From assembly GCA_041659445.1 (NCBI GenBank), contig JBAZYG010000001.1:240001-272000 (forward strand): a stretch of 32,000 bases of DNA, in the 5' to 3' direction. Made by a program: the position numbers and the translations under genes. The notes beneath the pieces were generated by a model. The model was given only the letters and a program-made list of their open reading frames with translations, did not search any database and was not told the origin of the DNA. Origin of the DNA: Candidatus Saccharimonadota bacterium (GTDB lineage: Archaea > Nanobdellota > Nanobdellia > Pacearchaeales > GW2011-AR1). Below, one piece after another: positions 1-18,303 of the stretch (positions are counted from its first letter, which is position 1; the number at the start of each line of letters is the position of its first letter).

Positions 1-1
1 A

Positions 2-220: not shown

Positions 221-231
221 AAGGAGGTAAA

Positions 232-966: not shown

Positions 967-1161
967 ATTCATTTTTCTTTTTTTATTATCTTATTTTTGT
1001 TATTTTAATTTAGAAAAATTTTTAATGAGAGAATTATTTAGTTAATTATGAAAATTAAAGTTTGTGCACTTATCAGATAGAATAATAAAATTTTAATATT
1101 AAAAAGAAGTAAGTTTGATTCTGATTAATCTTAAAAAAATTAAAAAAAATAAAAAATAAAA

Positions 1162-1908: not shown

Positions 1909-2004
1909 TTTTTCCTCCTTTCATTTGTATGAAAATAAATAATATTTTTTATTTATGTTTTAAATTTTTTTGATATTATATTTGCTTTGGAGAAACTAGT
2001 TTCA

Positions 2005-3261: not shown

Positions 3262-3296
3262 TTTTTAATTTTAATAAAAGGATTTTATAAACTTAT

Positions 3297-3779
3297 TTAT
3301 TCTTTTTTTAATAAAATAATATTATTCATGCCCCTTCTTTTTCTAATAATTAAATCTTTTGATTCAAGTTTATCTAAAAGTCTTGTTGTTTTTACTTTCC
3401 CAATTTCTAATTTTTCCATTAATTCTCTTTGAAAAACTCCACCTTGTTCTTTTTGAAGAAATTCAATCACTTTTTTTTCATCTTTTTCTAAGTTTGATAA
3501 GTCAATTTTTTTCAATTTTGATTTCTCTTTTATTTTTTTAATAATTGTTTTTTCTTCTGGTTTTGAAAGCATAATAAATAAACCTATTATTAAAATAATC
3601 ATTACAATTGCAATACTTATCCAAGTTTGAATTGCTATAGTTTCAAACATAGAACATTCTGGGCCATGAGTACAAGTATCTCCGACAATTTTTTTAAGTC
3701 CTAAATTAAAAATTAAAACAATTAAAGACATAACAATTGAAATTCCTATAATAATCCATCCAACTTTTTTATTTTCCAT
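3297..3779 (-). CDS. Membrane-tethered winged-helix (MarR-like) protein
   Basis: Two N-terminal TM helices flank a loop carrying CTHGPEC. The C-terminal part is wHTH-like (VIEFLQKEQGGVFQRELMEKLEIGKVKTTRLLDKLESKDLIIRKRRG). Its start codon abuts the stop of the upstream ferredoxin gene (3779/3780). Confidence 0.6.
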   Translation of the reverse strand: MENKKVGWIIIGISIVMSLIVLIFNLGLKKIVGDTCTHGPECSMFETIAIQTWISIAIVMIILIIGLFIMLSKPEEKTIIKKIKEKSKLKKIDLSNLEKDEKKVIEFLQKEQGGVFQRELMEKLEIGKVKTTRLLDKLESKDLIIRKRRGMNNIILLKKE

Positions 3780-4031
3780 TTATTCTATTTCAACATCTCC
3801 ATTCTTTATTTTACATTGACAAGCAAGCCTTATATTTTTATTCATTCCCATGATTTTTTCATTTTTCGTTAAAGGACTTAAATTTTTCTCTCCTTTTTTA
3901 AGATTAATTACACAAATACCGCATGTTCCTTGATGACATGAAAAAGGAATTCCTAATTCTTCTGATGCTTTATCAATCAAAGAATTTTTTTTTAATTTTA
4001 TAATTTTATTTTGTCTTTTTAAACTAGGCAT
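3780..4031 (-). CDS. Small plant-type 2Fe-2S ferredoxin
   Basis: Cys pattern C-x4-C-x2-C ... C is present (SCHQGTCGICV ... LACQC), in 83 aa. Confidence 0.7.
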   Translation of the reverse strand: MPSLKRQNKIIKLKKNSLIDKASEELGIPFSCHQGTCGICVINLKKGEKNLSPLTKNEKIMGMNKNIRLACQCKIKNGDVEIE

Positions 4032-4087
4032 TTTTAAATTATTTTCTCAAGTTTAAATGTCCTTTTTTATTTGAGATGAATTAAAAT

Positions 4088-4107
4088 ATATGAAAAATAA
4101 TTCATAT
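4088..4107. promoter_or_regulatory. Perfect inverted repeat ATATGAA-N6-TTCATAT; candidate operator (or stem-loop) between iscU and the ferredoxin gene
   Basis: The plus strand reads atatgaa aaataa ttcatat. It shares an identical 18-nt string (atatgaaaaataattcat) with the site at 7050-7067. A further ATGAA half-site lies at 4076-4080. Confidence 0.45.
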
Positions 4108-4117
4108 TTAAATGTTT

Positions 4118-4510
4118 CTATTTTTTGTTTTGTTCTCTGTAATCTTTAATTGCTTTATTTAATGCTTGAATTGCCATTATTGAACAATGTACTTTAATTT
4201 GAGGAAGTCCTTTGAGAGCATTTTTTACATCATTCATTGTTAGTTTTTCTGCTTCTTTCAATGTTTTTCCTTTTGCAATTTGTGTTAGCATTGAAGTTGA
4301 TGCAATTGCCGCAGCACAACCAAATGTTTTGAATTTTATTTTTTTAATTTTCTGAGATTTTTTATCAATTTTTAAATACATTTCCATTATGTCTCCGCAA
4401 ATAGGATTTCCAACTTTTCCGATTGCATCTGGATTTTTTATTTCTCCAAATCCTTTTGGTTTTAGAAAATTTTGCATAACTTTTCTTGAGTAATCTGATA
4501 ATGATACCAT
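4118..4510 (-). CDS. iscU: IscU/NifU-type Fe-S cluster assembly scaffold
   Basis: The three scaffold cysteines sit in canonical contexts: GNPICGD, FGCAAAIASTS and VHCSIMA. Confidence 0.85.
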   Translation of the reverse strand: MVSLSDYSRKVMQNFLKPKGFGEIKNPDAIGKVGNPICGDIMEMYLKIDKKSQKIKKIKFKTFGCAAAIASTSMLTQIAKGKTLKEAEKLTMNDVKNALKGLPQIKVHCSIMAIQALNKAIKDYREQNKK

Positions 4511-4511
4511 T

Positions 4512-4748
4512 TTATTTATTCAATTTTTTAATTAATTCATTTATTTGTTTTTTTGTCATTCCGTGAGCAAGGCAACCTTGTTCAATAGTTTCAAAATTAG
4601 CCATTGAACATCCAACACAACCTAAACCATATTCAAATAATATTTCAAAAGCTTCTGGTTTTTTGTTTAAAATTTCAATTATATTTGTTTTTTCAGTTAT
4701 TACATATTTTTTGTTTTCTTTTTTCTTAACTACTTTTTTCTTTTTCAT
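4512..4748 (-). CDS. DUF1858 / hybrid-cluster-protein-associated redox disulfide domain protein
   Basis: The sequence EILNKKPEAFEILFEYGLGCVGCSMANFETIEQGCLAHGM matches the family pattern (YGxxCxGC...E.....HG) well. A 4-nt overlap links it to the upstream gene. Confidence 0.75.
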   Translation of the reverse strand: MKKKKVVKKKENKKYVITEKTNIIEILNKKPEAFEILFEYGLGCVGCSMANFETIEQGCLAHGMTKKQINELIKKLNK

Positions 4749-5146
4749 TTTTCCAATTCTTTGACTAAATCCTCGACTTTAACTTTTATTTTTTTTATTG
4801 TTTTATAACAATTTTCCAAATTATTATTTAAAACATCTGGAATTTTCCAATTAATAACTTTTTTTATATAATCTTTATTATTAAAAATTTTTATAGGAAT
4901 ATCATTTGCAACAATGATTATCAAATCTTGTTTTTTTAAAAATGGAATTGTTAAATTTTTAGGCTTAGATATTGGATTTACATTTTCTTTTTTCATAGCT
5001 ATTATTTGATTTGGTGAATTCTTTCCTCCGGAAAATAAGCCCCCACTTGAAATTTTAATTTTAGGATTTTTATTTATTTGTTTAAAATAGGTTTCAGCTA
5101 CTCGACTTCGAAATACATTATGTTTACAAACGAAAATTATATTCAT
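4745..5146 (-). CDS. Low-molecular-weight phosphotyrosine phosphatase / ArsC-like family protein
   Basis: An N-terminal P-loop C-x5-R-S is present (IIFVCKHNVFRSRVAE), in 133 aa. The second and third cysteines of thioredoxin-coupled ArsC are absent. Confidence 0.7.
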   Translation of the reverse strand: MNIIFVCKHNVFRSRVAETYFKQINKNPKIKISSGGLFSGGKNSPNQIIAMKKENVNPISKPKNLTIPFLKKQDLIIIVANDIPIKIFNNKDYIKKVINWKIPDVLNNNLENCYKTIKKIKVKVEDLVKELEK

Positions 5147-6300
5147 TTTACTAAAGGGCTTAACCTCCTTAATTTTTTTACAATTTCTTGAAGTTTTTCT
5201 AGAGTATAATCCATTTCTTTTTCTGTTGTGTATTTGCTTAAACTAATTCTTATGGACGAATTTGCTCTTAGAGGTCTTAGGTTTAATGCTTTTAATACAT
5301 GGCTTGTTTCGAGAGTATTTGACATGCAAGCAGAGCCTGTTGATACGAAAATTCCTGCATTTTCAAGATAACCTCCAATTGATTCTCCTTCTATATTATT
5401 AAAAGAAATATTTATATTATTTGCAAGCCTTAAATTTCCAGTTGGACCGTTCAAGTTTGTATCTGGAATTGAATTTAAAATTCCATTAATTAATTTATCT
5501 CTAAGTTTTTGCATATTTTTTATATTTTTTGAATTTGAAATTTCAACTGCTTTGGCAAATCCAACAATGTTTGGAATATTTTCTGTTCCACTTCTTTTTC
5601 CTTTTTCGTGTCCTCCTCCATGAAGTAAATAAGTTATATCTATTCCTTCTTTGATATATAGTGCACCAATTCCTTTTGGCCCGTGGATTTTATGGGAGTT
5701 TATTGTAACTAAATCTAAATTTTGTTTTTTGACATCTATTGGAACTTTAGTGAAACTTTGACAAGCATCAGTATGAAATAAAACTTTTTTTTCTTTACAG
5801 ATTTTTCCTATTTCTTCTATATTTTGAATTACACCAATTTCATTATTTCCATGTATCACTGAAACTAAAAATGTTTCTTTTGTTATTGTTTTTTTTAATT
5901 CGTCGATATTGATAAATCCTTGTTCATTTACATTTAGATAAGTTATTTTTGCTCCTTGATTTTCTAATCTTTCACATGGTTTTAAAATTGAATCATGCTC
6001 TATTTTTGTTGTGATCAAATGATTTTTTCCAGTGTTTTCTTTTTGATTTTTCCAGAACAAACCTTTCAATGCCCAGTTATTTGATTCTGTGCCTCCAGAT
6101 GTAAAATAAATTTCAGAAGGTTTTGCATTTATTGATTTTGCAATAATTTTTCTTGCTTTTTCCAACGCAGTTTTTGCTTCGCTTCCCATTAAATGCATTG
6201 AAGATGCATTTCCATATTTTTCATTAAAATAAGGAAGCATTTCTTTCAAAACTTTTTCATCAACTTTTGTTGTTGCTGCATTGTCGAGGTATATTTTCAT
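5143..6300 (-). CDS. nifS: Cysteine desulfurase (NifS/IscS class)
   Basis: The PLP-lysine motif SHKIHGPKGIGALY and the catalytic Cys loop STGSACMS are present. The N-terminus IYLDNAATT is typical. Confidence 0.9.
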   Translation of the reverse strand: MKIYLDNAATTKVDEKVLKEMLPYFNEKYGNASSMHLMGSEAKTALEKARKIIAKSINAKPSEIYFTSGGTESNNWALKGLFWKNQKENTGKNHLITTKIEHDSILKPCERLENQGAKITYLNVNEQGFINIDELKKTITKETFLVSVIHGNNEIGVIQNIEEIGKICKEKKVLFHTDACQSFTKVPIDVKKQNLDLVTINSHKIHGPKGIGALYIKEGIDITYLLHGGGHEKGKRSGTENIPNIVGFAKAVEISNSKNIKNMQKLRDKLINGILNSIPDTNLNGPTGNLRLANNINISFNNIEGESIGGYLENAGIFVSTGSACMSNTLETSHVLKALNLRPLRANSSIRISLSKYTTEKEMDYTLEKLQEIVKKLRRLSPLVK

Positions 6301-6758
6301 TTTAAAAGTCCTTCTTTTTGTAAAATTTCTTTATGATTATAAGCCAAATTTATTTTTTTTATTTCTGAAGGTTTAAACCATTTTATTTCAGAAGTTTCAT
6401 TAAGTGGTTTTGGTTCACCTTTTATTATTTTTGCATAATAAACTATATTAATTGAATGTAAGGAGCATTCTTTTTTTGGAGGATTTTCATAAATAATCTT
6501 AGATTTTTTTACAATTTTTATGTCAACTCCTAATTCTTCTTTAACTTCTCTTATTGCAGTTTTTTCAGATAATTCATTATAATCAATTATTCCTCCAGGT
6601 AATCCCCAAAATTCAGGATAAGTTATCATATTTTTTGTTCTTTTTCCGAGAAGAATTTCTTTTTTTGAATTTTGAATAATGACTGGAACCCCTCCAATAG
6701 CAAATTTAAATTGTAAAATATTAAATAAAGGTTTGGCTAAAAAATATTTTATGTTCAT
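6297..6758 (-). CDS. NUDIX hydrolase
   Basis: A Nudix box is present: GLPGGIIDYNELSEKTAIREVKEELGV. Confidence 0.8.
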   Translation of the reverse strand: MNIKYFLAKPLFNILQFKFAIGGVPVIIQNSKKEILLGKRTKNMITYPEFWGLPGGIIDYNELSEKTAIREVKEELGVDIKIVKKSKIIYENPPKKECSLHSINIVYYAKIIKGEPKPLNETSEIKWFKPSEIKKINLAYNHKEILQKEGLLK

Positions 6759-7051
6759 TTTAAATTACATCCTTTGCAAAAAACGTTTCTATGATTATCA
6801 ATTATATTCAAAATCGGAATTATTGTTTTTTTATTTAAAGAATAAATTCTAAATTTTCCTTTTTGCTCTTCTTGAACAATATTGCAGTGTTTTAAAGACG
6901 ATAATGCATGTGAAAGTTTGCTTTGTTCAATTTTTAATTTTTTTGATAATTGCATTACAGAACTTGATTTTTCTTTTAACGCAGTTATTATTTCAATTTT
7001 TAGTGGATTTGATAAACTTCCAAAAAAAACATGATAAGCATTACATTTCAT
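6755..7051 (-). CDS. ArsR/SmtB-family winged-helix transcriptional regulator
   Basis: The protein is 98 aa, with the pattern LSNPLKIEIITALKEKSSSVMQLSKKLKIEQSKLSHALSSLKHCNIVQEEQKGKFRIYSL. It is the first cistron of the Fe-S operon. Confidence 0.7.
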   Translation of the reverse strand: MKCNAYHVFFGSLSNPLKIEIITALKEKSSSVMQLSKKLKIEQSKLSHALSSLKHCNIVQEEQKGKFRIYSLNKKTIIPILNIIDNHRNVFCKGCNLK

Positions 7052-7069
7052 ATGAAAAATAATTCATGG
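7050..7069. promoter_or_regulatory. Inverted repeat ATATGAA-N6-TTCAT between the TATA box and the ATG of the ArsR-family gene; candidate auto-operator
   Basis: The plus strand reads atatgaa aaataa ttcatgg, directly abutting the start codon (complement of 7049-7051). It carries the same 18-nt string as 4088-4105. Confidence 0.5.
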
Positions 7070-7071
7070 GG

Positions 7072-7079
7072 ATTTTTAA
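7072..7079 (-). promoter_or_regulatory. TATA-like box (TTAAAAAT on the minus strand) for the ArsR/Fe-S operon
   Basis: It lies about 25 nt upstream of the ATG at 7051, consistent with a leaderless or near-leaderless transcript. Confidence 0.45.
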
Positions 7080-7200
7080 GAGTTTTGGTTTATGTTAAGT
7101 TCTTGTTTCATCAAAAGAGTTTTAGCAATACATCAAGTAAAAAGAATAAAGGGTTTGATGTCGTTAATAGTATCTACATAGTAGTAACATAATAGAAACA

Positions 7201-7208
7201 TTTATAAA
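7201..7208 (+). promoter_or_regulatory. TATA box TTTATAAA of island ORF 1
   Basis: Its first T is exactly 30 nt before ATG 7231, the same spacing as the two units below. TAGTAAC lies upstream at 7182-7188. Confidence 0.55.
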
Positions 7209-7230
7209 GATGCACTTTTTAATGATTGGT

Positions 7231-7647
7231 ATGGCAGATACATTAGATAAAATTGTGACATTTTTCCGAGTAAGCCCTGCACAACAAGTGATAGCTTTAG
7301 GAATGTCAACACCTGCAACAGTATTATCTACTTATAGTGCTATTGAAAATTATTCTCAAGGAAATATAGGTGCAGGGGTTACAAATACGCTTATAGCATT
7401 GGCAAATATTGGGTGTTTTTTATTTAATGAGTATTTGGCAATCGGAAAAATGCAAGAATATAGAAAAGTAAAAAGTGCATTAGATGATCATGGCTGGGAT
7501 GAAAGAATTATTGAGCCAAAATCTCATTCATGGTGTCAAAGAAATATGGCTCAAGTAGCATCAGAAGATTCTGGTTTTGGGAACGAAGCAAGAGAATATT
7601 TGAAAGACAAAGGATATAAACGGTATAATTTCATCCCATACCTTTAG
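7231..7647 (+). CDS. Orphan protein, island ORF 1 (hydrophobic N-terminal half, polar C-terminal half)
   Basis: The ORF is open from 7210, but TTTATAAA at 7201-7208 leaves no room for ATG 7210 or 7222. ATG 7231 gives the same 30-nt TATA-to-ATG spacing as the other two units. There are two hydrophobic segments (VIALGMSTPATVLSTYSAI and GVTNTLIALANIGCFLF). I recognise no family. Confidence 0.5.
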   Translation: MADTLDKIVTFFRVSPAQQVIALGMSTPATVLSTYSAIENYSQGNIGAGVTNTLIALANIGCFLFNEYLAIGKMQEYRKVKSALDDHGWDERIIEPKSHSWCQRNMAQVASEDSGFGNEAREYLKDKGYKRYNFIPYL

Positions 7648-7762
7648 ACCTCAAACTCCTTCTAAATTTAGCTAATTTTTTATTGAAACTAATCACTGTT
7701 AAACGAGGGTGAACCGAAGGGAAATTTCAGAGTTTTTGAGTTGTTTATAGTTTAAGAATTGT
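7648..7762 (+). repeat. Post-ORF conserved element, copy 1 (core 7660-7714)
   Basis: Core sequence: ttctaaatttagctaattttttattgaaactaatcactgttaaacgagggtgaac. It contains overlapping palindromes CTAAATTTAG and TTAGCTAA, a T6 run (7676-7681, terminator-like), then CTGTTAAACGAG-N-GTGAAC. The core matches copy 2 at 49 of 55 positions by hand alignment, and weaker similarity continues to about 7762. Confidence 0.8.
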
Positions 7763-7767
7763 TCAAA

Positions 7768-8259
7768 TTAATGAGTTAAAAAATATTTCAATATTCTACC
7801 AACGGGTTTAATGTTTGTTGATGGGATTAGTTCATTACATCTAATTGTTGATTCATCTCTTCGTTCAAAAGTTAAATTAGATAATTTATTTCTATCAATA
7901 TAAACAACAGTTGGTTTTGAATTTGTTCTTATGCTTTTTGAACGTGCCCATGATTCAGCATTATCAAAATCTACTACAAGATAAATTGGTCCTAAAAAAC
8001 TTTTAGAAGGATCTAGACCTTCTTGAAGAATTTGAGATAATTTATCAGTAGTAGTTCCATGAAAAAGATATCTTGGTTGATATGTTTCATCAAATAAACA
8101 TTTACTCAAATTAGATTTCATATCATAAACTTTATTAAAAAATGAGATTTTTCTTAATGTTTTTTTTACAGTAGACTCAATATTTTTATTAGTTGCAATA
8201 CCAGATGTATATAATAAATAATTTTTTAAATCATTTTCTAAATATTTTTTAACTTCCAT
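7768..8259 (-). CDS. Putative minimal ADP-ribosyltransferase-fold protein (H-Y-E class, DT/ExoA/PARP/Tpt1-like)
   Basis: YLFHGTTTDKLSQILQEGL ... GPIYLVVDFDNAESWA ... RRDESTIRCNELIPS lines up, from memory, with HGT-x6-SI-x2-G, G-[FI]-Y-[IL]-x2-D and a C-terminal catalytic-Glu strand of DT/ExoA/PARP-type ARTs. The CDS itself is well supported (163 aa, TTTAAATA about 27 nt upstream); the function call is tentative. Confidence 0.4.
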   Translation of the reverse strand: MEVKKYLENDLKNYLLYTSGIATNKNIESTVKKTLRKISFFNKVYDMKSNLSKCLFDETYQPRYLFHGTTTDKLSQILQEGLDPSKSFLGPIYLVVDFDNAESWARSKSIRTNSKPTVVYIDRNKLSNLTFERRDESTIRCNELIPSTNIKPVGRILKYFLTH

Positions 8260-8332
8260 ACCCTAAGTATAATTTATTAATATTTAAATTTTTTGTTTTA
8301 TAGTAACTATATAATGGTAAATGATATAAAGA

Positions 8333-8340
8333 TTTATAAA
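8333..8340 (+). promoter_or_regulatory. TATA box TTTATAAA of island ORF 2
   Basis: Its first T is exactly 30 nt before ATG 8363. TAGTAAC lies at 8301-8307. Confidence 0.55.
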
Positions 8341-8362
8341 GAAGTTATTATCACCATATAAT

Positions 8363-8695
8363 ATGTTCGACGTACAAGATTATTATAAAACTGCAAGAGA
8401 AAATGAAGAAGTATTTAGAAATGTATTAAGAGACTTGCGCGCTAGAAAAGTTATGTATGTGCCGAGAAATTTAGAAACCGAAGCAAATCTTGATGAAATT
8501 TTCCAAAGATATTCAGAAGGGCAAAGAATGGGAAAATTTACAATAACTTCCTTTTCAAGACCCGAAAGGACAAGAGCAACAATTGGTTTTTGCGATGTGG
8601 CTCCTCTTTCTGGAGGTGGAGCAGAGCTTGAATATTTAGTAAATGATGATAACTCAGTTAAGTATGACAAACCAGGTTTTACTATGATGAGTTAA
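8363..8695 (+). CDS. Orphan protein, island ORF 2
   Basis: The ORF is 110 aa with TATA at -30, and the conserved 3' element starts 13 nt after its stop. I recognise no family. It looks richer in G+C than the surrounding genes. Confidence 0.55.
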   Translation: MFDVQDYYKTARENEEVFRNVLRDLRARKVMYVPRNLETEANLDEIFQRYSEGQRMGKFTITSFSRPERTRATIGFCDVAPLSGGGAELEYLVNDDNSVKYDKPGFTMMS

Positions 8696-8812
8696 AACCC
8701 AAAGCCATTTCTAAATTTAGCTAATTTTTTATTGAATTTAAGTGCTGTTAAACGAGAGTGAACTAATTTCGAGGCAGGTGGTCGTTTATTGTTGTATTTG
8801 TTATAATTGTAT
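8696..8812 (+). repeat. Post-ORF conserved element, copy 2 (core 8709-8763)
   Basis: Core sequence: ttctaaatttagctaattttttattgaatttaagtgctgttaaacgagagtgaac, with T6 at 8725-8730. The downstream part (aatttcgag ... gtcgtttattgtt ... aattgt) aligns with copy 1 (aatttcagag ... gttgtttatagtt ... aattgt). Confidence 0.8.
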
Positions 8813-8833
8813 TAATTATATAGTAACGAAAGA

Positions 8834-8841
8834 TTTATAAA
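8834..8841 (+). promoter_or_regulatory. TATA box TTTATAAA of island ORF 3
   Basis: Its first T is exactly 30 nt before ATG 8864. TAGTAAC lies at 8821-8827. Confidence 0.55.
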
Positions 8842-8863
8842 GTTTAATTTTATTTCACAAGGT

Positions 8864-9178
8864 ATGATAAGAGATAATTTTCCATTAGAAAGAATATTGA
8901 ATGTTTCAGCAACAGAATATTGTTTAAACGCTGGTAAGGAATTAAAAGATTATGATCTTATAGGAGTCCATGTTGATGATGATTTGCCCTGTGGTGCAAG
9001 ATTAATTAGCAGATTTCAAGAAAGAGTTCCATCCAATGCGGAAGTAGTTGTTTCTTTTTCTTATGCTATTGCTGGAGGTGCAAGTGGAACATCTGGAGTT
9101 TTAGGATTATCTCAGACACATAGAGCTTTCTTAAATCAATATGCATCTGGGACTGCTTTGATACCAAGGGAAAAATAA
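8864..9178 (+). CDS. Orphan protein, island ORF 3
   Basis: The ORF is 104 aa with TATA at -30, and a diverged copy of the 3' element starts 10 nt after its stop. It has a Gly/Ser-rich segment (AIAGGASGTSGVLG). I recognise no family. Confidence 0.55.
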   Translation: MIRDNFPLERILNVSATEYCLNAGKELKDYDLIGVHVDDDLPCGARLISRFQERVPSNAEVVVSFSYAIAGGASGTSGVLGLSQTHRAFLNQYASGTALIPREK

Positions 9179-9243
9179 ATCTTTCGATTTCTATTCTTTA
9201 GCACTGATTTCTGAATTGAAACTATCAGACTTTTAACGAACTC
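9179..9243 (+). repeat. Post-ORF conserved element, copy 3 (diverged; core 9189-9243)
   Basis: The sequence ttctattctttagcactgatttctgaattgaaactatcagacttttaacgaactc aligns with copies 1 and 2 with indels. Shared blocks are TTCTA, TTTAGC, ATTGAAACTA and TTAACGA. Confidence 0.55.
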
Positions 9244-9251
9244 ATTTAAAT

Positions 9252-10019
9252 TTATCTTCCCTTCCAATAAGGGCATTGATCTCGATATTCGCACCAATCG
9301 CACAATGCAGAAGGTTCTGGTGGGAATTCTTTTGTTTTTTCAATTTTTTCTATTAATTCAATAGTTTGTTTTCTTAAATTTTCTAATTGCTCATTGGTTC
9401 TTTTTGATTCAATTCTTTTGTTGTGGTCCAAATAATGCCAGATTAAAATTATTTCTTTGTCATATCCATATGTTTGTTTGATTGCTAAACTATACAAAGC
9501 TAATTGCCTGTCATTTTCAAATTTATTTGGGTTTGGTAAACTTGAAGCAGTTTTATAATCATGAACTTCATAACGATTTTTTTCTTTATTAAAAACTAAT
9601 CTATCGATAAATCCCTTTATCTTGTGTGGTGAAGTTTCATCTAAAATAATATATACTTCTTTTTCAACGTCGATTGTTCCATCTTGAAATGGAGAATTTT
9701 TTAAATAATAATCAACGAGAAATTTTATTCCCTTGCTGAAGTAATCTTCTGGTTTTGCATCTTTTCTTACTACTTTAAAATTTTCTTTGTAATCTTCTTG
9801 CCATTTGTTTGTATAAAATTCAATTATTCTATCTAGCTCTGGTATAAAATCATTTAATACATTCGAATAAAGCCATTCTAGTGTATCATGAACGCATGTT
9901 CCTAAATGAGCTTCTATTGATTTTTCAAAATCTGGTGTTAATTTGTCTATATACTTGAATTTATATTTTAATTTGCATTGTTCAAAAGTAGATAATCTCG
10001 AATGTGAATAAACTGTCAT
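9252..10019 (-). CDS. PD-(D/E)XK nuclease, Cas4/RecB/AddB-like, with a 4-Cys Fe-S cluster motif
   Basis: There is an N-terminal Cys (STFEQCKLKYKFKYI) plus a C-terminal C-x2-C-x5-C (LCDWCEYRDQCPYW). Nuclease motifs seen are GFIDRL, HDYKT (D-x-K) and QLALYSL (QxxxY). No CRISPR array or other cas genes are in the window. Confidence 0.8.
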   Translation of the reverse strand: MTVYSHSRLSTFEQCKLKYKFKYIDKLTPDFEKSIEAHLGTCVHDTLEWLYSNVLNDFIPELDRIIEFYTNKWQEDYKENFKVVRKDAKPEDYFSKGIKFLVDYYLKNSPFQDGTIDVEKEVYIILDETSPHKIKGFIDRLVFNKEKNRYEVHDYKTASSLPNPNKFENDRQLALYSLAIKQTYGYDKEIILIWHYLDHNKRIESKRTNEQLENLRKQTIELIEKIEKTKEFPPEPSALCDWCEYRDQCPYWKGR

Positions 10020-10050
10020 AAGTTCTTAAAGAAAATCAATAGTTATAAAT

Positions 10051-10455
10051 TTAATTGATTTCGTCAAGAATAGTTAAATTTAATTTTACTTTTCCTTCTA
10101 ATTCTTGTTTTAGATTTATTAAAAATCTTTTTGATATTATTTTTCTTCCTGAAATTCCGTCTTTGAAAGAAATTAAATAAACCGGTTCGTTGTATTTAGG
10201 GTATTTTTCGTTTAAATTTTTTTCTATTTTAGATATTTCTCCTAAAAGTTCTTTTTCATCTAAATTTGGGTAATTTCCTCCGATAAATAAAAATTTGTTT
10301 GAACTGTTTAAATCTGTATTTGAAGTGTATAAATCAAACTGATATTCAAGGACATATTTTTTTGAATGATCTTTTGTGATTGAAAAATAATTTTTTGGAA
10401 TTCTTTCTAGTATTGAATCTATATGTTCTTCTTCTTTTGTGATTTCTTCTTCCAT
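10051..10455 (-). CDS. Hypothetical protein
   Basis: The ORF is 134 aa with a TATA-like TTTTAAAA about 26 nt upstream. No family is recognised. Confidence 0.55.
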   Translation of the reverse strand: MEEEITKEEEHIDSILERIPKNYFSITKDHSKKYVLEYQFDLYTSNTDLNSSNKFLFIGGNYPNLDEKELLGEISKIEKNLNEKYPKYNEPVYLISFKDGISGRKIISKRFLINLKQELEGKVKLNLTILDEIN

Positions 10456-10514
10456 ATTTTTATTTTAATTCAATCTTTTAAAAAGGTTTTTGTTCTCAAG
10501 TGTATATTAGAATT

Positions 10515-11729
10515 TTAAATTATTTCTCCGAAGCCAATTAATCTCCAGTGATTATCTATTCTTCTTGCAATTCCGACATTGTCTCCTTTTAATGCAATAA
10601 TTGGAATTGTTAAGTTTAATTCAATTTCATTTTCATGAATTTTTTGAGCAATTCCGACGGTAATTGTTGTATTAACACTAAGCATTAATAATTCATTAAG
10701 TTTTATTTTTTCAACGCTTTGATGCGTTTCTTGTCCTAAAACTTCTTTAAATAATTCTGCTTTAATTTTTATTTTTGAAATTATATCTGGTAAATCTCCT
10801 TTTGTTGAAAGCACGCAACCTGTTAATGAATCTGTTTTAGTTAAAAATGGATCTAAAGATGTTTCAATTGAAATGCTTGCTCCAGGAAGAACTTCTTTTA
10901 CAGACGAACTTCCTTTATGTATTGAAAGTATCTTTGTTGTCAAAGGAATATATTCAAATTTATTTTGTTTCTTAACACTTAATCCTGGTTTTATTTCAAT
11001 TTCATTTCCAACTTTTAATTTTCCTCTTTTTAAAATTCCTCCTAAAACTCCTCCGTTTAAATCTTTAATTTCTTTACCAGGACGATTTATATCAAAACTT
11101 CTTGCTACTAAAAAAATTGGTTTTGAATTTTCATCTCTTTTTGGAACAGGTAATTCAACTAATGCTTCTAAAACTTTTTCAATGTTTACATTTTGTTGTG
11201 CAGAAATTGGAATTATTGGAGCATTTTCTGCAATTGTTCCTTTTACAAATTCTTTTATTTTCTTGTAATTTTCAAGAGCTTTTTCTTTGGAAACTAAATC
11301 AATTTTATTTTGAACGATGATTATGTTTTTTATTTTTTTTGCTTGCAATGCCATGAAGTGTTCTTTTGTTTGAGGTTTTATTCCTTCATTTGCAGCAATC
11401 ACTAAAATCGCAGAATCAATTATTGCAGCTCCTGAAAGCATAGTTGCCATTAACATTTCATGTCCTGGAGCGTCGATAAATGAAACATATCTCAAAGGTT
11501 TTCCTTTTCCTTGAATGTTATATTCTTCTTTATCTTTTGAAATAATTATTTCTGCATAACCTAATTTTATTGTAATTCCTCGTTTTAATTCCTCTGAATG
11601 AGTGTCTGCCCATTTTCCAGTTAATCTTGATAAAAAAGTTGTTTTTCCGTGGTCAATGTGTCCAACTACTCCAACATTTAATTCAGGTAATTGTTGGATT
11701 TCTGTTTCTTGAGATTCTGTTTTATTCAT
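10515..11729 (-). CDS. eif2g: Translation initiation factor aIF2 gamma subunit
   Basis: The G domain reads VGVVGHIDHGKTT...HSEELKRGITIKLGYA...DAPGHE...NKID, followed by domains II and III. The size (404 aa) fits. Confidence 0.92.
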   Translation of the reverse strand: MNKTESQETEIQQLPELNVGVVGHIDHGKTTFLSRLTGKWADTHSEELKRGITIKLGYAEIIISKDKEEYNIQGKGKPLRYVSFIDAPGHEMLMATMLSGAAIIDSAILVIAANEGIKPQTKEHFMALQAKKIKNIIIVQNKIDLVSKEKALENYKKIKEFVKGTIAENAPIIPISAQQNVNIEKVLEALVELPVPKRDENSKPIFLVARSFDINRPGKEIKDLNGGVLGGILKRGKLKVGNEIEIKPGLSVKKQNKFEYIPLTTKILSIHKGSSSVKEVLPGASISIETSLDPFLTKTDSLTGCVLSTKGDLPDIISKIKIKAELFKEVLGQETHQSVEKIKLNELLMLSVNTTITVGIAQKIHENEIELNLTIPIIALKGDNVGIARRIDNHWRLIGFGEII

Positions 11730-11806
11730 GAAAATAAATGATTAAAATGATTTATAATGCTTTTGATTACAATAATATTTAAAAATATGATTTTTTATTT
11801 ATTATA

Positions 11807-12049
11807 ATGTCTGGTAAAGAAAGTTGCATAAAATATGCAAGTTTGGAAGAAGCATCTAAAGAACTTTTAACTTGGAAAATTTATCGTGAGAGAAGAGAAC
11901 CTCCAAAAAGTCCAATTGGAATTATAGAAAGAATTACTTATCTTGAAGATAATGGATATATCCTTGAGAGAAGAGGGCAAACACCAAAAGTTGCTGCTTT
12001 TTTTGGATATAAAGTAACAGAAAAAGGTTATGCTTGGGTTAAAAATTAA
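11807..12049 (+). CDS. Small hypothetical protein, possible winged-helix
   Basis: The protein is 80 aa. ITYLEDNGYILERRG...GYKVTEKGYAWV resembles a wHTH recognition helix plus wing. The assignment is weak. Confidence 0.45.
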   Translation: MSGKESCIKYASLEEASKELLTWKIYRERREPPKSPIGIIERITYLEDNGYILERRGQTPKVAAFFGYKVTEKGYAWVKN

Positions 12050-12050
12050 T

Positions 12051-12446
12051 TTAATTATTTAAACAATAGTCTCGGAATGGATTTGAGTTTTCAATAAATT
12101 CTGCTATTTGATAACTATCTGTTTCAAATGCTTTTTTAAGTTCTGTTCTTCTTGAAGGAATTATTTTGCTGTAAATGTTGTCTGATAAGATTTTTTGTTC
12201 AATCGGATTTCTTGTTAAATTTTCGCATAATTCAAATGCTCTTTTATACAAACCTTTACTTTTTGCAAAAGAAATTGCTTGTCTATAATGTTTGTATTTA
12301 TCTAAATAAGAAATTTGATATTCAGTTATTTCCATTTTATTGGACATTGCTTGAATTAAACTAAGAAATTTTGGTAAATTGTCTTTTGGTTTTGAACCAA
12401 ATAAAAGTTTTATTTCTGGATTGCTTTGTTGATTTAATGGTTCCAT
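12051..12446 (-). CDS. Hypothetical protein
   Basis: The ORF is 131 aa and predicted helical by eye. No family is recognised. Confidence 0.5.
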   Translation of the reverse strand: MEPLNQQSNPEIKLLFGSKPKDNLPKFLSLIQAMSNKMEITEYQISYLDKYKHYRQAISFAKSKGLYKRAFELCENLTRNPIEQKILSDNIYSKIIPSRRTELKKAFETDSYQIAEFIENSNPFRDYCLNN

Positions 12447-12524
12447 GATTTTATTGAATCTATTTTTTAAGTTGTTTTGTTAGTTTAGATATTTTGTCTT
12501 TTCCACCAAGATTATTAAGTATTA

Positions 12525-13184
12525 TTAAGATTCTTTTACTCCAATGAAAGTATTTGTACCATTAAATAAATCTTTTTCAGAAATAGAGGATCTATGCATT
12601 GGAGCACCTAGATTTAAAACATCTAAAGAGTTAGATCTTCCATAACCAAATCCTCCGAATAAAAATATTCCGCTAGTTTCTAATTTAAATTTATAAAATC
12701 CTGATTTTTCTATTAGGGGTAAGATATAATCAAAATAATTAGATAAGGTTTTTGAATCTCTTGCTAAAAAATTCCATTCTCTTGAATCTAAAATTTCTTC
12801 TTTGCTGTAATATGCACTATTTTCTAAAGAGGAGATTTGATCTTTTTGAATAAAAAGGACATTTTTTCCGGATAATTCTTCCCATTCGTTATTTGTTATG
12901 GGGAGAGAGGTATTTGGATGTTTAAATTTTGTTTGATAGTTCATTGAAGTAATTTTTTCTGAATCTAGAATAATTTTAGCATCTCCTTTACTATTATAAG
13001 CAATTGCATCTTTGGTATCACTTGCAGAATAAATGATTTGAGGATATCCTTCTTGAGTACATTCCATTCTGTTTTGCATTAAATCTTTAATAGATTGAGG
13101 GTAATATCCCTCCTTTTTCATATCTTCGATTATTTGGTGAGCATGTCTCTTGAATTCTCCCTTAAATTTCTTAAATTCTTTCAT
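12525..13184 (-). CDS. Hypothetical protein
   Basis: The ORF is 219 aa with a TATA-like GTTTATAAA about 30 nt upstream. No family is recognised. Confidence 0.55.
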   Translation of the reverse strand: MKEFKKFKGEFKRHAHQIIEDMKKEGYYPQSIKDLMQNRMECTQEGYPQIIYSASDTKDAIAYNSKGDAKIILDSEKITSMNYQTKFKHPNTSLPITNNEWEELSGKNVLFIQKDQISSLENSAYYSKEEILDSREWNFLARDSKTLSNYFDYILPLIEKSGFYKFKLETSGIFLFGGFGYGRSNSLDVLNLGAPMHRSSISEKDLFNGTNTFIGVKES

Positions 13185-13274
13185 AATTCTTTAAAAAATA
13201 AGTGATTTATAAACTTTTCTGTTTTGTTGTCTCTTTTTAGAAATAACAATTAATCACCCTCTAGAATTTTAAAT

Positions 13275-13712
13275 TTATTCTGATTTTTCAGACTTATTGT
13301 TTTGTTCTGGGAAAATTTCAGAAAGTTTTTTGTTTCCTTGTTTTAAAACTTTCATATTAATTTGAACAATTGCAGGAGAAATTACTTTTCCTCGAACTGT
13401 TTTTCTTAATTTTAGTCCTTTTGGTTTTGGGTTTGAACGTTTTTTCTTTCCTTCTTTTTTAGGTCTTTTGTGCATTCCTTTGCCGTATTTTAAAAGAATT
13501 TTTTTTAATCCAATTCCAGGAACTTCTTTCATTACAGTAAATCCTGCTAAATCACTTGCTCCTGTTATTTCTAATTCATATCCTTTTAATTCAGGATAAA
13601 TTTCTTCACCGTTAACTTTATCATTTAATTCTTTATCAATTAATGATTCTGCTTCGATTTCTAATTTATATGTCTTTCCTGATTTGTCTGATATGTTAAT
13701 TTTGAATACCAT
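13275..13712 (-). CDS. rps6e: Ribosomal protein eS6 (S6e)
   Basis: It has an S6e-like N-terminus (MVFKINISDKSGKTYKLEIE...GYELEITGASDLAGFTVMKEVPG) and a basic C-terminal tail. Confidence 0.9.
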   Translation of the reverse strand: MVFKINISDKSGKTYKLEIEAESLIDKELNDKVNGEEIYPELKGYELEITGASDLAGFTVMKEVPGIGLKKILLKYGKGMHKRPKKEGKKKRSNPKPKGLKLRKTVRGKVISPAIVQINMKVLKQGNKKLSEIFPEQNNKSEKSE

Positions 13713-13787
13713 GGATATTTATTGGAAAATTAGCTTAAAAAGCTTTTGATTGCATAGTTTTAAAAAATAATTTAACTTTTATTATTT

Positions 13788-14531: not shown

Positions 14532-14554
14532 TGTCATTTTATAGTTAATATACT

Positions 14555-15202: not shown

Positions 15203-15251
15203 TAATAAAGATTTATAATCTATTTTTGTCTTTATTTTTCGTGAGGTGAAA

Positions 15252-18212: not shown

Positions 18213-18303
18213 TCCTAGTATTTTTATAATATTAACAAATTTTTTAATTTAATTTAAAATAATTCTTAGGAACCTTTAAATATTCAAAGTTTTACTTATT
18301 AAA

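What the first reader, a model, noticed from the sequence alone, without database searches (positions are those of the whole stretch)
7182..9243. Cassette-like array: three unrelated orphan ORFs share one promoter geometry and one conserved 3' element
ORFs 7231-7647, 8363-8695 and 8864-9178 show no convincing similarity to each other, yet each sits in the same frame.
- Upstream of each is a TAGTAAC word (7182, 8301, 8821).
- Each has TTTATAAA whose first T is exactly 30 nt before the ATG (7201/7231, 8333/8363, 8834/8864), implying leaderless mRNAs.
- 10-13 nt after each stop codon comes a copy of the same 55-bp element, TTCTAAATTTAGCTAATTTTTTATTGAA..CTGTTAAACGAG.GTGAAC.

Copies 1 and 2 match at 49 of 55 positions by hand, and their similarity continues for about another 50 bp. 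Copy 3 is clearly homologous but diverged.

The first half of the element (overlapping palindromes CTAAATTTAG and TTAGCTAA plus T6) looks like a terminator. The conserved second half lies beyond the T-run, so termination does not explain it. It contains GTTAAAC, which fits the integron core pattern GTTRRRY.

Variable cargo framed by conserved ends is the logic of gene-cassette or shufflon-type accessory loci. No recombinase is in the window.
Basis: seen in the sequence. Interest (0 to 1): 0.78.

Follow-up and report, generated by a model that had tools for sequence, protein, structure and literature searches.

The report
Archaeal gene modules bounded by dif-like sites
Three unrelated small genes of a tiny (DPANN) archaeon sit in a shared non-coding frame, and the repeated 55-bp element looks like a recombination junction between swappable gene modules, which in this window appear old and fixed.

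Summary
Copies 1 and 2 (7660-7714, 8709-8763) match at 49 of 55 positions, and no shuffle scores as well. Copy 3 is weak inside the window, but orthologous flanks in other genomes show it is homologous. The TATA box 30 nt before the ATG is the ordinary archaeal leaderless promoter: 26 of 48 genes here have one. The three ORFs are not orphans. Each has homologues in Pacearchaeota or Woesearchaeota metagenome assemblies. Those homologues sit in different neighbourhoods but keep the same flanks.

Comparison with about 40 related loci shows what the element is:
- its first half is the 3' (terminator) part of one gene module;
- its middle is a junction, ATT-X5'-TAA | 5-6 nt | TTA-X5, built like a Xer/dif site (11-6-11);
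- its second half is the start of the next module's structured leader.

Homology between genomes breaks at the junction spacer. Module ends are matched inverted arms. The same frame surrounds unrelated cargo.

The best reading, at about 0.5, is modules moved or exchanged by a tyrosine recombinase, analogous to dif modules or IMEX elements. The integron attC reading is not supported. In this window the array is degenerate and identical in three samples. No recombinase was seen.

The parts
7093..7103 (+). Putative left end of the ORF1 module: TGTTAAGTTC, right-arm-like TTA-X5.
   Evidence: One search gives the coordinates. It aligns with the CTGTTA starts of the L016 and L056 leaders. It matches the module's right end at only 3 of 5 variable positions. 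Weak.
7149..7162 (+). Upstream arm AAGGGTTTGATGTC of the inverted repeat that brackets the ORF1 promoter and ORF. It pairs with 7647-7661.
   Evidence: In the close relative L057 the same pair is a 22-nt inverted repeat with 2 mismatches.
7179..7189 (+). Operator-like word TAGTAGTAACA upstream of the BRE/TATA box of ORF1.
   Evidence: AGTAGTWAC is conserved 8-12 nt upstream of the BRE in homologous modules of other genomes.
7195..7208 (+). BRE/TATA box GAAACATTTATAAA of ORF1, 30 nt before the ATG (leaderless mRNA).
7231..7647 (+). Cargo ORF1, 138 aa, function unknown.
   Evidence: 14 homologues, several of 135-139 aa, support the start at 7231. No Pfam, NCBIfam or PADLOC hit.
7647..7661 (+). 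Downstream arm GACCTCAAACTCCTT, complementary to 7149-7162.
7660..7692 (+). 3' module of the ORF1 cassette. It holds TTCTAAATTTAGC, the T-rich arm and terminator TAATTTTTT, and the left arm ATTGAAACTAA of the junction (7682-7692).
   Evidence: Homology with the ORF1 homologue in L058 ends exactly at 7692.
7682..7709 (+). Junction 1, a dif-like site: ATTGAAACTAA | TCACTG | TTAAACGAGGG.
7697..7767 (+). Fragment of the next module's leader: TGTTAAACGAGGGTGAAC...GGGAAATTTCAGAGTTTTTGAG.
   Evidence: By eye it resembles the leader at L007 6560-6590 and the one in L031. It is cut off by the 3' end of gene 7768-8259.
7768..8259 (-). Gene of 163 aa with weak similarity to Tpt1/KptA and PARP-type ADP-ribosyltransferase folds. 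It lies between junctions 1 and 2, divergent from ORF2.
   Evidence: Pfam PF01885 E=3.6e-4, below the curated cut-off. NCBIfam and PDB hits are weak.
8299..8313 (.). Palindrome TATAGTAACTATATA holding the TAGTAAC word, placed between the divergent promoters of 7768-8259 and ORF2.
   Evidence: Homology of the ORF2 module with L015, L016 and L011 starts here, at 8300-8302.
8327..8340 (+). BRE/TATA box TAAAGATTTATAAA of ORF2.
8363..8695 (+). Cargo ORF2, 110 aa. It belongs to a conserved DPANN protein family of about 115 aa, function unknown.
   Evidence: 73 homologues and their alignment. AlphaFold mean pLDDT is 83, showing 3 helices and a 4-stranded sheet, with no significant PDB match.
8696..8741 (+). 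3' module of the ORF2 cassette. It holds the arm AACCCAAAGCCA, whose upstream partner is lost here, then TTTCTAAATTTAGC, the T-rich arm, and the left arm ATTGAATTTAA.
8731..8758 (+). Junction 2, a dif-like site: ATTGAATTTAA | GTGCTG | TTAAACGAGAG.
8746..8819 (+). Leader of the ORF3 module: TGTTAAACGAGAGTGAAC...GCAGGTGGTCG...
   Evidence: It aligns with the leaders upstream of the ORF3 homologue in L056 and of cargo c2 in L016.
8820..8841 (+). Operator-like word ATAGTAAC followed by the BRE/TATA box GAAAGATTTATAAA of ORF3.
8864..9178 (+). Cargo ORF3, 104 aa, function unknown.
   Evidence: 9 homologues. The 87%-identical homologue in L056 keeps both flanks in a different neighbourhood.
9175..9188 (+). 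ATAAATCTTTCGAT spanning the stop codon. It is the reverse complement of the module's own BRE/TATA region (CGAAAGATTTAT).
   Evidence: score 25-28. The same feature occurs in L056 and twice in L016.
9188..9242 (+). Copy 3. It holds the 3' module TTTCTATTCTTTAGCACTGATTTCTGA and a degenerate junction ATTGAAACTAT | CAGACT | TTTAACGAACT.

Best explanation
The interval 7093-9242 is a small, decayed array of gene modules. The modules belong to a family found in DPANN archaea; this organism is a Candidatus Pacearchaeota.

A well-preserved module, as seen in L016, L030, L022 and L031, reads in this order:
1. TTA-X5-(C/T)CC.
2. A structured leader of 70-190 nt, with hairpins closed by GNA triloops.
3. 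An operator-like AGTAGTWAC word.
4. A BRE/TATA box 30 nt before the ATG, giving a leaderless mRNA.
5. The cargo ORF.
6. An arm complementary to the module's own 5' flank.
7. TTTCTA..TTTAGC and a T-rich arm that doubles as the oligo-T terminator.
8. ATT-X5'-TAA.

Neighbouring modules abut at ATT-X5'-TAA | 5-6 nt | TTA-X5. This has the 11-6-11 architecture of a Xer/dif site. X5 and X5' of one module are complementary, so a circularised module would carry a nearly palindromic site.

SHOWN
- The frame is modular.
- It is conserved around unrelated cargo.
- It has sharp homology boundaries at the junction spacer.
- Module ends are matched.

INFERRED
- Modules are excised, inserted or exchanged by a tyrosine recombinase of the XerA type that cuts at the spacer edges.
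- The one-sided leader acts as accessory sequence.
- The shared operator co-regulates the cargo.

In this window the ends are no longer matched, the spacers differ, and the array is fixed. It is probably no longer active.
For: THE FRAME GOES WITH THE CARGO
- ORF2 homologues lie in at least three unrelated neighbourhoods but keep their upstream and downstream flanks.
- The ORF3 homologue in L056 and the ORF1 homologues in L057 and L058 do the same.

SAME FRAME, DIFFERENT CARGO
- L016 1067-1194 matches L056 2542-2671 at 87%. L016 1520-1580 matches L056 3000-3051 at 80%. The proteins enclosed are unrelated.
- The upstream frame of ORF1 in L057 is 76% identical over 100 nt to the ORF2 frame in L016.

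BREAKPOINTS FALL AT THE JUNCTION
- Strains L007 and L009 are 99.97% identical up to ATTTTGTCTAAT, then diverge inside the spacer.
- The 598-nt ORF2 module shared by L015 and L016 (91.6% identical) starts at the TAA and spacer of one site and ends at the last base of the left arm of the next.
- Homology between the window and L058 ends at 7692, the last base of the left arm.
- Contigs L010 and L018 end at junctions.

MODULE ENDS ARE MATCHED
- The variable 5-mers are complementary at 5 of 5 positions in 7 units and at 4 of 5 in 2 more. Non-cognate pairs average 1.5. No permutation of 20000 reaches the observed total.

FLANKS ARE COMPLEMENTARY WITHIN A CASSETTE
- The summed score for cognate 5' and 3' flanks is 300, against 191 +/- 15 when the flanks are permuted. 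No permutation of 20000 reaches it.

THE JUNCTION MOTIF IS SPECIFIC AND POLAR
- It occurs 14 times per 100 kb in the DPANN loci against 0.64 per 100 kb in 1.09 Mb of unrelated control loci. It is on one strand 22 times to 1, whatever the cargo orientation.

ARCHITECTURE FITS XER/DIF
- The P. abyssi dif site is ATTGGATATAA|TCGGCC|TTATATCTAAA (PMC2958812).
- dif is two 11-nt arms and a 6-nt spacer, with cleavage at the spacer edges (PMC8371274).

IT EXPLAINS THE PATCHY MATCH OF COPIES 1 AND 2
- Of the 6 differences between them, 5 fall in the X5' part of the arm and in the spacer.
Against: - No tyrosine recombinase is in the window or in any fetched locus.
- No excised circle and no clean filled-versus-empty site pair was found.
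- The window array is 100% identical in contigs from three samples.
- In the window the module ends match at only 3, 2 and 0 of 5 positions. The spacers of junctions 1 and 2 differ at 3 of 6 positions.
- Several units in L007 and L015 also have unmatched ends.
- Some junctions have a 5-nt spacer (L030, L031).
- Sequence similarity to the P. abyssi dif site, beyond the ATT..TAA/TTA positions fixed by my search pattern, is not above what AT-rich DNA gives.
- The long-range inverted repeats that bracket promoter and ORF are not explained by a Xer mechanism.
- Mismatches in those arms show no strand bias: 5 G.T against 4 A.C, read by eye. DNA-level and RNA-level pairing therefore cannot be told apart.
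Confidence: 0.5

Rival explanations
1. A regulatory frame only. The three genes and their homologues belong to one regulon. They share an operator plus a strong BRE/TATA promoter and a common terminator module. Frames spread between genes by ordinary homologous recombination or gene conversion. The junction motif is a protein-binding or termination-associated signal, not a recombination site.
For: - The operator-like AGTAGTWAC word and the BRE/TATA box are conserved across genomes and cargo families.
- A T-rich run sits in every 3' module.
- The window array is fixed in three samples.
- No recombinase was seen.
- Copies 1 and 2 share exact 28-mer and 19-mer blocks, as gene conversion would give.
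Against: - It does not explain why homology between genomes stops at the spacer of the junction.
- It does not explain why the two ends of a unit carry complementary unit-specific 5-mers.
- It does not explain cargo-less units of 70-100 nt lying between junctions (L007 6405-6504 and 1887-1962).
- It does not explain why junction polarity is independent of cargo orientation.
Confidence: 0.24
2. RNA-level units. The arrays are transcribed on the strand that carries the junction motif. Each unit is an RNA whose 5' and 3' ends pair in a terminal stem, like rRNA processing stems or small-RNA terminal stems. The precursor is cut at the junctions. Cargo-less units would be small structured RNAs.
For: - Nested complementary segments (terminal 8-9 bp, then H1, then H2) close each unit, with compensatory changes between genomes.
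- The motif has a 22:1 strand polarity.
- The right end is TAAC or TAAT opposite an invariant G, which tolerates a G.U pair on the + strand.
- The leaders contain locally compensated hairpins, read by eye.
Against: - The upstream arms lie outside the leaderless mRNA predicted from the TATA box at -30.
- No promoter is evident upstream of the arrays.
- No Rfam family matches, even at E<=1.
- The window elements do not fold better than shuffles.
- Some cargo lies on the opposite strand.
- C-GNA-G triloop hairpins are, to my knowledge, typical of stable DNA hairpins.
- Arm mismatches show no strand bias.
Confidence: 0.13
3. Non-autonomous transposons carrying passenger genes (mobile insertion cassettes, or MITE-like foldback elements), moved in trans by a transposase that recognises the terminal inverted repeats.
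For: - Units have terminal inverted repeats TTA-X5...X5'-TAA.
- Short cargo-less units exist.
- Passenger-gene cassettes bounded by IS-like inverted repeats are a known class (PMC4337579).
Against: - The inverted repeats are unit-specific rather than family-wide, which a sequence-specific transposase would not tolerate.
- No target-site duplication is seen at L016 or L030 junctions.
- Units abut head to tail at a fixed 5-6-nt distance.
- No near-identical multi-copy elements and no transposase were seen in any locus.
Confidence: 0.07
4. Integron gene cassettes with attC sites.
For: - GTTAAAC fits GTTRRRY.
- The elements follow the ORFs.
- Integrons and attC arrays are reported in archaeal assemblies, including GTDB Nanoarchaeota (PMC9668308).
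Against: - There is no inverse core RYYYAAC 50-140 nt upstream of GTTAAAC.
- The contiguous intergenic elements fold no better than shuffles on either strand, as RNA or as DNA, with z from +0.15 to +1.4.
- Copies are conserved in sequence, not in structure.
- Every cassette has its own promoter.
- One gene in the array is inverted.
- No IntI is present.
Confidence: 0.03

Closest known systems
dif modules (pdif modules) of Acinetobacter plasmids, and IMEX elements that exploit Xer recombination
   Same: - Small accessory-gene modules are bounded by 28-bp Xer-type sites, 11-nt arms around a 6-nt spacer.
- They lie in arrays.
- Modules are shuffled between replicons.
- The half-sites that face one module are inverted copies of each other (PMC6449649, PMC13141974, PMC5357621).

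Here the junctions have an 11 | 5-6 | 11 layout, the arms across a unit are matched, and homology breakpoints fall in the spacer.
   Different: - The host is an archaeon and the location is chromosomal.
- All sites point the same way, 22:1, whereas to my knowledge pdif sites alternate in orientation.
- The arms are largely unit-specific; only ATT..TAA and TTA are conserved.
- Each site carries a long structured leader on one side.
- Each module brings its own promoter and terminator.
- No Xer dependence has been shown.
Archaeal XerA/dif chromosome-dimer resolution site
   Same: - Two 11-nt inverted arms and a 6-nt spacer.
- The P. abyssi dif site ATTGGATATAA|TCGGCC|TTATATCTAAA shares ATTG....TAA, a spacer starting TC, and TTA with sites such as ATTGAATATAA|GCCCTG|TTAG... 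and ATTGAAACTAA|TCGCTG|TTAT....
- Thermococcales dif sites are also flanked by conserved sequences and inverted repeats.
   Different: - dif is single-copy, in the replication termination region of Thermococcales. These sites are multi-copy, clustered, and flank genes.
- The resemblance beyond the positions fixed by my pattern is not statistically distinguishable from AT-rich background.
Integron gene cassettes and attC
   Same: The logic is shared: an array of unrelated small accessory ORFs, each followed by a recombination element, with a cassette's two ends complementary to each other.
   Different: - There is no attC structure and no R''/R' pair.
- The presumed crossover lies in the middle of the palindrome rather than at one edge.
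- The cassettes carry their own promoters.
Archaeal BRE/TATA promoters with leaderless mRNAs
   Same: GAAAGATTTATAAA lies 30 nt before the ATG. The same geometry is found at 26 of 48 genes in the window.
   Different: Nothing differs for the core promoter. The upstream AGTAGTWAC word is an addition specific to these modules.

Membership tests
Integron attC site | Inverse core RYYYAAC and core GTTRRRY, 50-150 nt apart within one contiguous element. | tested here: not met
   Only GTTAAAC is present (7699, 8748). No RYYYAAC-type partner lies upstream within 7648-7698 or 8696-8747.
Integron attC site | An imperfect palindrome that folds as single-stranded DNA. | tested here: not met
   DNA and RNA folds of both strands of 7648-7767, 8696-8833 and 9179-9251 give z-scores from +0.15 to +1.4. 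Between 112 and 191 of 200 shuffles fold at least as well.
Integron attC site | Detection by the HattCI / IntegronFinder covariance model. | not testable with these tools
   These programs are not available here. Rfam gave no match of any kind.
Integron | An IntI integrase and attI next to the array, with mostly promoterless cassettes. | tested here: not met
   No tyrosine recombinase is in the window. Every cassette has its own BRE/TATA box.
Xer/dif-type recombination site | Two 11-nt inverted arms separated by a spacer of about 6 nt. | tested here: inconclusive
   The layout ATT-X5'-TAA | 5-6 nt | TTA-X5-YCC recurs 22 times. Arm symmetry within a chromosomal junction is 3-9 of 11. It is 9 of 11 when the two ends of one unit are joined. 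In L030 and L031 the spacer is 5 nt.
Xer/dif-type recombination site | Sequence similarity to a characterised archaeal dif site. | tested here: inconclusive
   The left arm matches the P. abyssi dif site at 8-10 of 11 positions, but 6 of these are fixed by my search pattern. Random AT-rich matches in the window score 6-9.
Xer/dif-type recombination site | Binding and cleavage by a Xer recombinase at the spacer edges. | not testable with these tools
   This needs biochemistry. Indirect support comes from homology breakpoints at or in the spacer in four comparisons.
dif modules / IMEX | The same module is found in different replicons or contexts, bounded by the sites. | tested here: met
   The ORF2 module of L015 and L016 is 91.6% identical over 598 nt, with unrelated surroundings and boundaries at the sites. 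The ORF1 and ORF3 modules behave likewise.
dif modules (Acinetobacter type) | Flanking sites in alternating, inverted orientation, on plasmids. | tested here: not met
   All sites lie in one orientation, 22:1. The contexts are chromosomal and include housekeeping genes: aIF2-gamma, S6e, NifS/NifU.
MITE / mobile insertion cassette | Family-wide terminal inverted repeats, target-site duplications, and many near-identical copies. | tested here: not met
   The inverted repeats are unit-specific. No duplication is seen at the junctions. No near-identical multi-copy units occur in the loci held.
Generic terminator / REP-like repeat | Occurs downstream of many ordinary genes in the genome. | tested here: not met
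   Within the 32-kb window, about 48 genes, the element occurs only at the three ORFs. The rest of the genome could not be scanned.
Archaeal leaderless BRE/TATA promoter | A TATA box about 27-33 nt before the start codon, preceded by a purine-rich BRE. | tested here: met
   Boxes start at 7201, 8333 and 8834 and are preceded by GAAAC, TAAAG and GAAAG. The geometry is window-wide, 26 of 48 genes.
CRISPR repeat (solo) | Regularly spaced identical repeats with short spacers. The ...ATTGAAAC 3' handle was only a lead from memory. | tested here: not met
   There are two copies 1049 nt apart with genes between them. ATTGAAAC is part of the left arm, and its middle bases vary between units.

The most novel reading that the evidence does not exclude
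DPANN archaea (Pacearchaeota/Woesearchaeota) may carry a previously undescribed cassette system. Small accessory genes, each with its own promoter and terminator, would be packaged between dif-like sites whose arms are unit-specific but mutually complementary. An excised circle would then carry a palindromic site. The host XerA, or a dedicated tyrosine recombinase, would excise, insert and reshuffle these modules. The one-sided structured leader would act as accessory sequence. This would be an archaeal counterpart of integrons, dif modules and IMEX elements, with a crossover in the middle of the palindrome.
Probability: 0.3. Interest if true: 0.85.

Novelty: new variant of a known kind. Interest (0 to 1): 0.66.

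Why it matters
DPANN archaea have very small genomes, and how they gain and exchange accessory genes is poorly understood.

A modular frame that supplies promoter, terminator and recombination ends to arbitrary small genes would be a simple platform for gene exchange and expression. It would parallel bacterial integrons and Xer-dependent dif modules.

I found no description of Xer-exploiting modules in archaea:
- a 2021 review of archaeal tyrosine recombinases contains none of the terms IMEX, dif-like or DPANN;
- literature searches were negative.

The library searched is limited.

The proposal is directly testable with XerA biochemistry and long-read metagenomes. Even under the regulatory-only reading, the conserved operator, promoter and terminator frame defines a regulon of unknown small proteins across DPANN lineages.

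Tried and rejected
SEARCHES THAT GAVE NOTHING USEFUL
- A scan of 185,579 genomes for the gapped element pattern returned only two chance hits, in a Frischella genome and a Bacteroidales genome. The source genome is apparently not among the species representatives.
- Viral-contig scans with either half of the element found nothing.
- A 14-mer from the leader gave about 120 chance hits, which I later used as a negative control.
- An 18-mer from the leader found one related DPANN-like contig, L059, and one chance hit.
- Rfam gave nothing at gathering thresholds on the window and 12 loci, apart from one tRNA in L058. It also gave nothing at E<=1 on the L016 array.
- The window has no tRNA.
- Pfam, NCBIfam and PADLOC gave no function for ORF1, ORF2 or ORF3.
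- The ORF2 structure model has no significant PDB neighbour.

IDEAS REJECTED
- A structured RNA or an attC within the contiguous intergenic elements: the folds are no better than shuffles.
- Extension of the repeat by another 50 bp: not supported.
- A local tandem duplication as the full explanation: the flanks are conserved around orthologues in other genomes.
- A solo CRISPR repeat, prompted by the ...ATTGAAAC ending: this stretch is the variable left arm of the junction.
- BHB-type splicing motifs at the long-range helices: none seen by eye.
- Strain-level variation of the islet: looking up the flanking ArsR-family protein found the same array in all 4 contigs.

Full report
CONTEXT

The window is archaeal and about 27% G+C. 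It encodes aIF2-gamma (10515-11729), ribosomal protein S6e, aIF5B, NifS/NifU and other housekeeping proteins. It is 100% identical to ENA contig ERZ27249449 k141_563995. Sources name the ORF2 and ORF3 proteins as hypothetical proteins WC812_01680 and WC812_01685 of a Candidatus Pacearchaeota archaeon, on a contig of 486,529 bp.

The finding lies in a 2.2-kb islet between an ArsR-family gene (6755-7051, minus strand) and a PD-(D/E)XK, Cas4-like nuclease gene (9252-10019, minus strand).

CHECKING THE OBSERVATION

The coordinates are right. TTTATAAA starts at 7201, 8333 and 8834, each 30 nt before an ATG. TAGTAAC starts at 7182, 8301 and 8821.

Copies 1 and 2 of the downstream element are real. 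They match at 49 of 55 positions, include an exact 28-mer and a 19-mer, and no shuffle reaches their score.

Copy 3 is marginal on window evidence alone. The claimed further 50 bp of similarity is at background.

The three proteins are unrelated to each other, but they are not orphans:
- ORF2 belongs to a well-conserved family of about 115 aa, with 73 homologues at 50-82% identity in Pacearchaeota, Woesearchaeota, Nanoarchaeia and Aenigmarchaeota assemblies.
- ORF1 has 14 homologues.
- ORF3 has 9 homologues.

The promoter geometry is the general rule in this genome. 26 of 48 genes have a TATA-like box 27-33 nt before the start codon, against 2.4 expected. It is an ordinary archaeal leaderless promoter.

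WHAT THE FLANKS ARE

I fetched about 40 loci that encode homologues.

ORF2 homologues sit in unrelated neighbourhoods: between a tRNA-Thr_ED-family gene and an HNH gene, between DUF7343 and Lon genes, and next to a CARDB/FtsX cluster. Yet they keep the same flanks:
- upstream, AGTAGTWAC, then 8-12 nt, then (C)GAAAGNTTTATAAA;
- downstream, a consensus that follows the stop codon: a short arm, TTTCTA..TTTAGC, a T-rich run, then ATTG-N4-TAAY.

The ORF3 homologue in L056 is 87% identical in protein and has different neighbours. It keeps both flanks, and its 3' flank shows that window copy 3 is a diverged member.

The ORF1 homologues in L057 and L058 keep parts of the frame. The upstream frame in L057 is 76% identical over 100 nt to the frame of the ORF2 module in L016.

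Most telling is the comparison of L016 and L056. They share a 130-nt 5' flank at 87% identity, running up to the TATA box, and a 3' flank of about 60 nt at 80% identity, running from the stop codon. The proteins enclosed show no similarity.

So the frame is a module that is reused around unrelated cargo. Cargo I saw includes ORF1, ORF2, ORF3, a 102-aa protein, a 127-aa protein on the opposite strand, a 112-aa protein, an HNH endonuclease and a tRNA-Thr_ED-family protein.

THE JUNCTION

Where modules abut, the sequence reads ATT-X5'-TAA, then 5-6 nt, then TTA-X5. Examples:
- L016: ATTGAAACTAA|TCGCTG|TTATGTCTCCC
- L007: ATTGCGCATAA|TCAGTG|TTAGACGACCT
- window: ATTGAAACTAA|TCACTG|TTAAACGAGGG (7682-7709)
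- window: ATTGAATTTAA|GTGCTG|TTAAACGAGAG (8731-8758)
- window, degenerate: 9215-9242

The motif with TGTTA occurs 14 times per 100 kb in the DPANN loci, against 0.64 per 100 kb in 1.09 Mb of unrelated control loci. It lies on one strand 22 times to 1, whatever the orientation of the cargo.

Homology between genomes stops at this site:
- Strains L007 and L009 are 99.97% identical up to ...GTCTAAT and diverge within the spacer.
- The ORF2 module shared by L015 and L016 (598 nt, 91.6% identical) runs from the TAA and spacer of one site to the last base of the left arm of the next.
- Homology between the window and L058 ends at 7692, the last base of the left arm.
- Two contigs, L010 and L018, end at junctions.

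The two ends of a unit are matched. The variable 5-mer after TTA is the reverse complement of the 5-mer before TAA at 5 of 5 positions in seven units (three in L016, two in L030, one each in L022 and L031), and at 4 of 5 in two more. Non-cognate pairs average 1.5 of 5. No permutation of 20000 reaches the observed total. Joining the two ends of a unit would therefore give a nearly palindromic site, 9 of 11 in L016 unit 1.

This is the 11-6-11 architecture of Xer/dif sites, where cleavage occurs at the spacer edges (PMC8371274). The P. abyssi dif site is ATTGGATATAA|TCGGCC|TTATATCTAAA (PMC2958812). The sequence resemblance (ATTG....TAA, a spacer starting TC, then TTA) is suggestive, but it is not above AT-rich background once the positions fixed by my pattern are discounted.

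FURTHER ANATOMY

Each module also carries cassette-specific inverted repeats that bracket promoter plus ORF. One arm lies just after the stop codon. Its partner lies upstream of the promoter, or on the promoter itself in ORF3-type modules, where ATAAATCTTTCG over the stop is the reverse complement of the BRE/TATA box.

A second, outer pair includes the T-run. Examples:
- L015: AGGGCTTTGGAC / GTCCAAAGCCCT, and AAAAAATCAGC / GCTGATTTTTT
- L022: AGGGTTTGGGG / CCCCAAACCCT, and CGAGAAAAAACTC / GAGTTTTTTCTCG
- L057: a 22-nt pair

Cognate flanks are far more complementary than non-cognate ones: 300 against 191 +/- 15, with no permutation of 20000 reaching it.

Leaders to the right of each junction hold hairpins with GAA, GTA or GGA triloops closed by C-G, for example GTGCGAAGCAC and TTCGGCGAAGCCGAA. 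Mismatches in the arms show no strand bias, read by eye. I cannot tell whether the pairing matters in DNA or in RNA.

READING THE WINDOW

- the 3' module of the upstream cassette (TTCTAAATTTAGC plus the T-rich terminator arm);
- the left arm;
- the spacer;
- the right arm and first bases of the next leader (TTAAACGAGRGTGAAC).

Five of the six differences between copies 1 and 2 fall in the variable arm 5-mer and the spacer. This explains the patchy conservation.

The window array is decayed:
- ORF2 has lost its upstream arms. A divergent gene with weak Tpt1/PARP-like similarity sits there.
- The unit ends match at only 3, 2 and 0 of 5 positions.
- The spacers differ.
- The array is base-for-base identical in contigs from three samples.

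MECHANISM

I commit, at about 0.5, to site-specific recombination at dif-like junctions by a XerA-type tyrosine recombinase. This would be an archaeal analogue of dif modules or IMEX elements, with integron-like logic.

What is shown is modularity, boundaries at the spacer, matched arms, and polarity. What is inferred is the enzyme, the excised circular intermediate, and the role of the leader as accessory sequence.

The rivals are:
- a purely regulatory frame spread by homologous recombination (0.24);
- an RNA-level array of stem-closed units (0.13);
- passenger-carrying non-autonomous transposons (0.07);
- integron attC (0.03), for which two defining features were tested and not met.

No recombinase was found in the window or in any fetched locus, and I have no circle or empty-site evidence.

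NOVELTY

Archaeal integrons are known (PMC9668308). Xer-dependent modules are known in bacteria (PMC6449649, PMC13141974, PMC5357621).

I found no report of dif-like modules in archaea or DPANN within the searchable library.

I rate this a new variant of a known kind, with moderately high interest. This particular window holds only a degenerate example.

Noticed in passing
L007 6405-6556 and 7508-7666, with the HNH gene at 6642-7436 (minus strand): In a related Pacearchaeote an HNH endonuclease gene is flanked by 150-nt direct repeats, 79% identical. Each repeat consists of a cargo-less unit plus the start of a leader. The two repeats begin at junctions that share the spacer TCAGTG. In strain L009 the DNA to the right of the first junction pair is replaced by a 112-aa ORF and an AAA_15 ATPase gene.
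   Followed up: partly
L058 711-833: The ORF1 homologue in GCA_041643275.1 lies about 25 nt downstream of a tRNA gene that appears to contain an intron (Rfam tRNA, 45 bits, spanning 123 nt). tRNA genes are classic integration targets.
   Followed up: no
window 9175-9188; L056 3003-3016; L016 307-320 and 1523-1536: In ORF3-type modules the sequence over the stop codon, (A)TAAATCTTTCG(G/A/T)T, is the reverse complement of the module's own BRE/TATA box. It could act as an antisense promoter at the 3' end, or as one arm of the bracketing inverted repeat.
   Followed up: partly
window 8363-8695 and alignment A2: The ORF2 family gives a confident AlphaFold model (mean pLDDT 83, pTM 0.77) with three helices and a four-stranded antiparallel sheet. 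It has no PDB match at E<=0.001 by fold or by sequence profile. It is a conserved DPANN protein of unknown fold class and function, with the invariant motif LSGGGAELEYLV.
   Followed up: partly
window 7768-8259 (minus strand): A 163-aa protein with sub-threshold similarity to RNA 2'-phosphotransferase Tpt1/KptA and to the PARP catalytic domain. It may be an ADP-ribosyltransferase-fold accessory protein. Related arrays carry an HNH endonuclease, a C5 DNA methyltransferase-like ORF (L016 2346-3416), an AAA_15 ATPase and a Barstar gene (L056). This gives the arrays the look of a defence or accessory islet.
   Followed up: no
window 1-20000: Cumulative GC skew reaches its minimum at about 7 kb, right at the islet. 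Genes to the left are all on the minus strand, and genes from 13.8 to 20 kb are on the plus strand. The divergence looks origin-like, but 32 kb is too short to interpret, and the skew may only reflect gene orientation.
   Followed up: no
window 16134-16282 and 17874-18022: An internal repeat of about 72% identity lies between two neighbouring MacB_PCD/FtsX permease genes (15246-16469 and 16992-18212). These are ordinary paralogues.
   Followed up: no
L016 junctions at 464, 1053, 1570 and 2165: The spacers alternate along the array: GCCCTG, TCGCTG, GCCCTG, TCGCTG. In L007, TCGCTG occurs three times and TCAGTG twice. Sites that share a spacer would be the compatible partners for strand exchange.
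   Followed up: no
L007, L009, L015, L016, L022 and L030 leaders: There are many short hairpins with C-GNA-G triloops: GTGCGAAGCAC, TTCGGCGAAGCCGAA, TTTTTGCGAAGCAAAAA and TTTTTGCGTAGCAAAAAA. A conserved unpaired motif (A)GYGCARYGTGGC / TTTTAGTGCAACG also recurs. No known RNA family matches them.
   Followed up: partly
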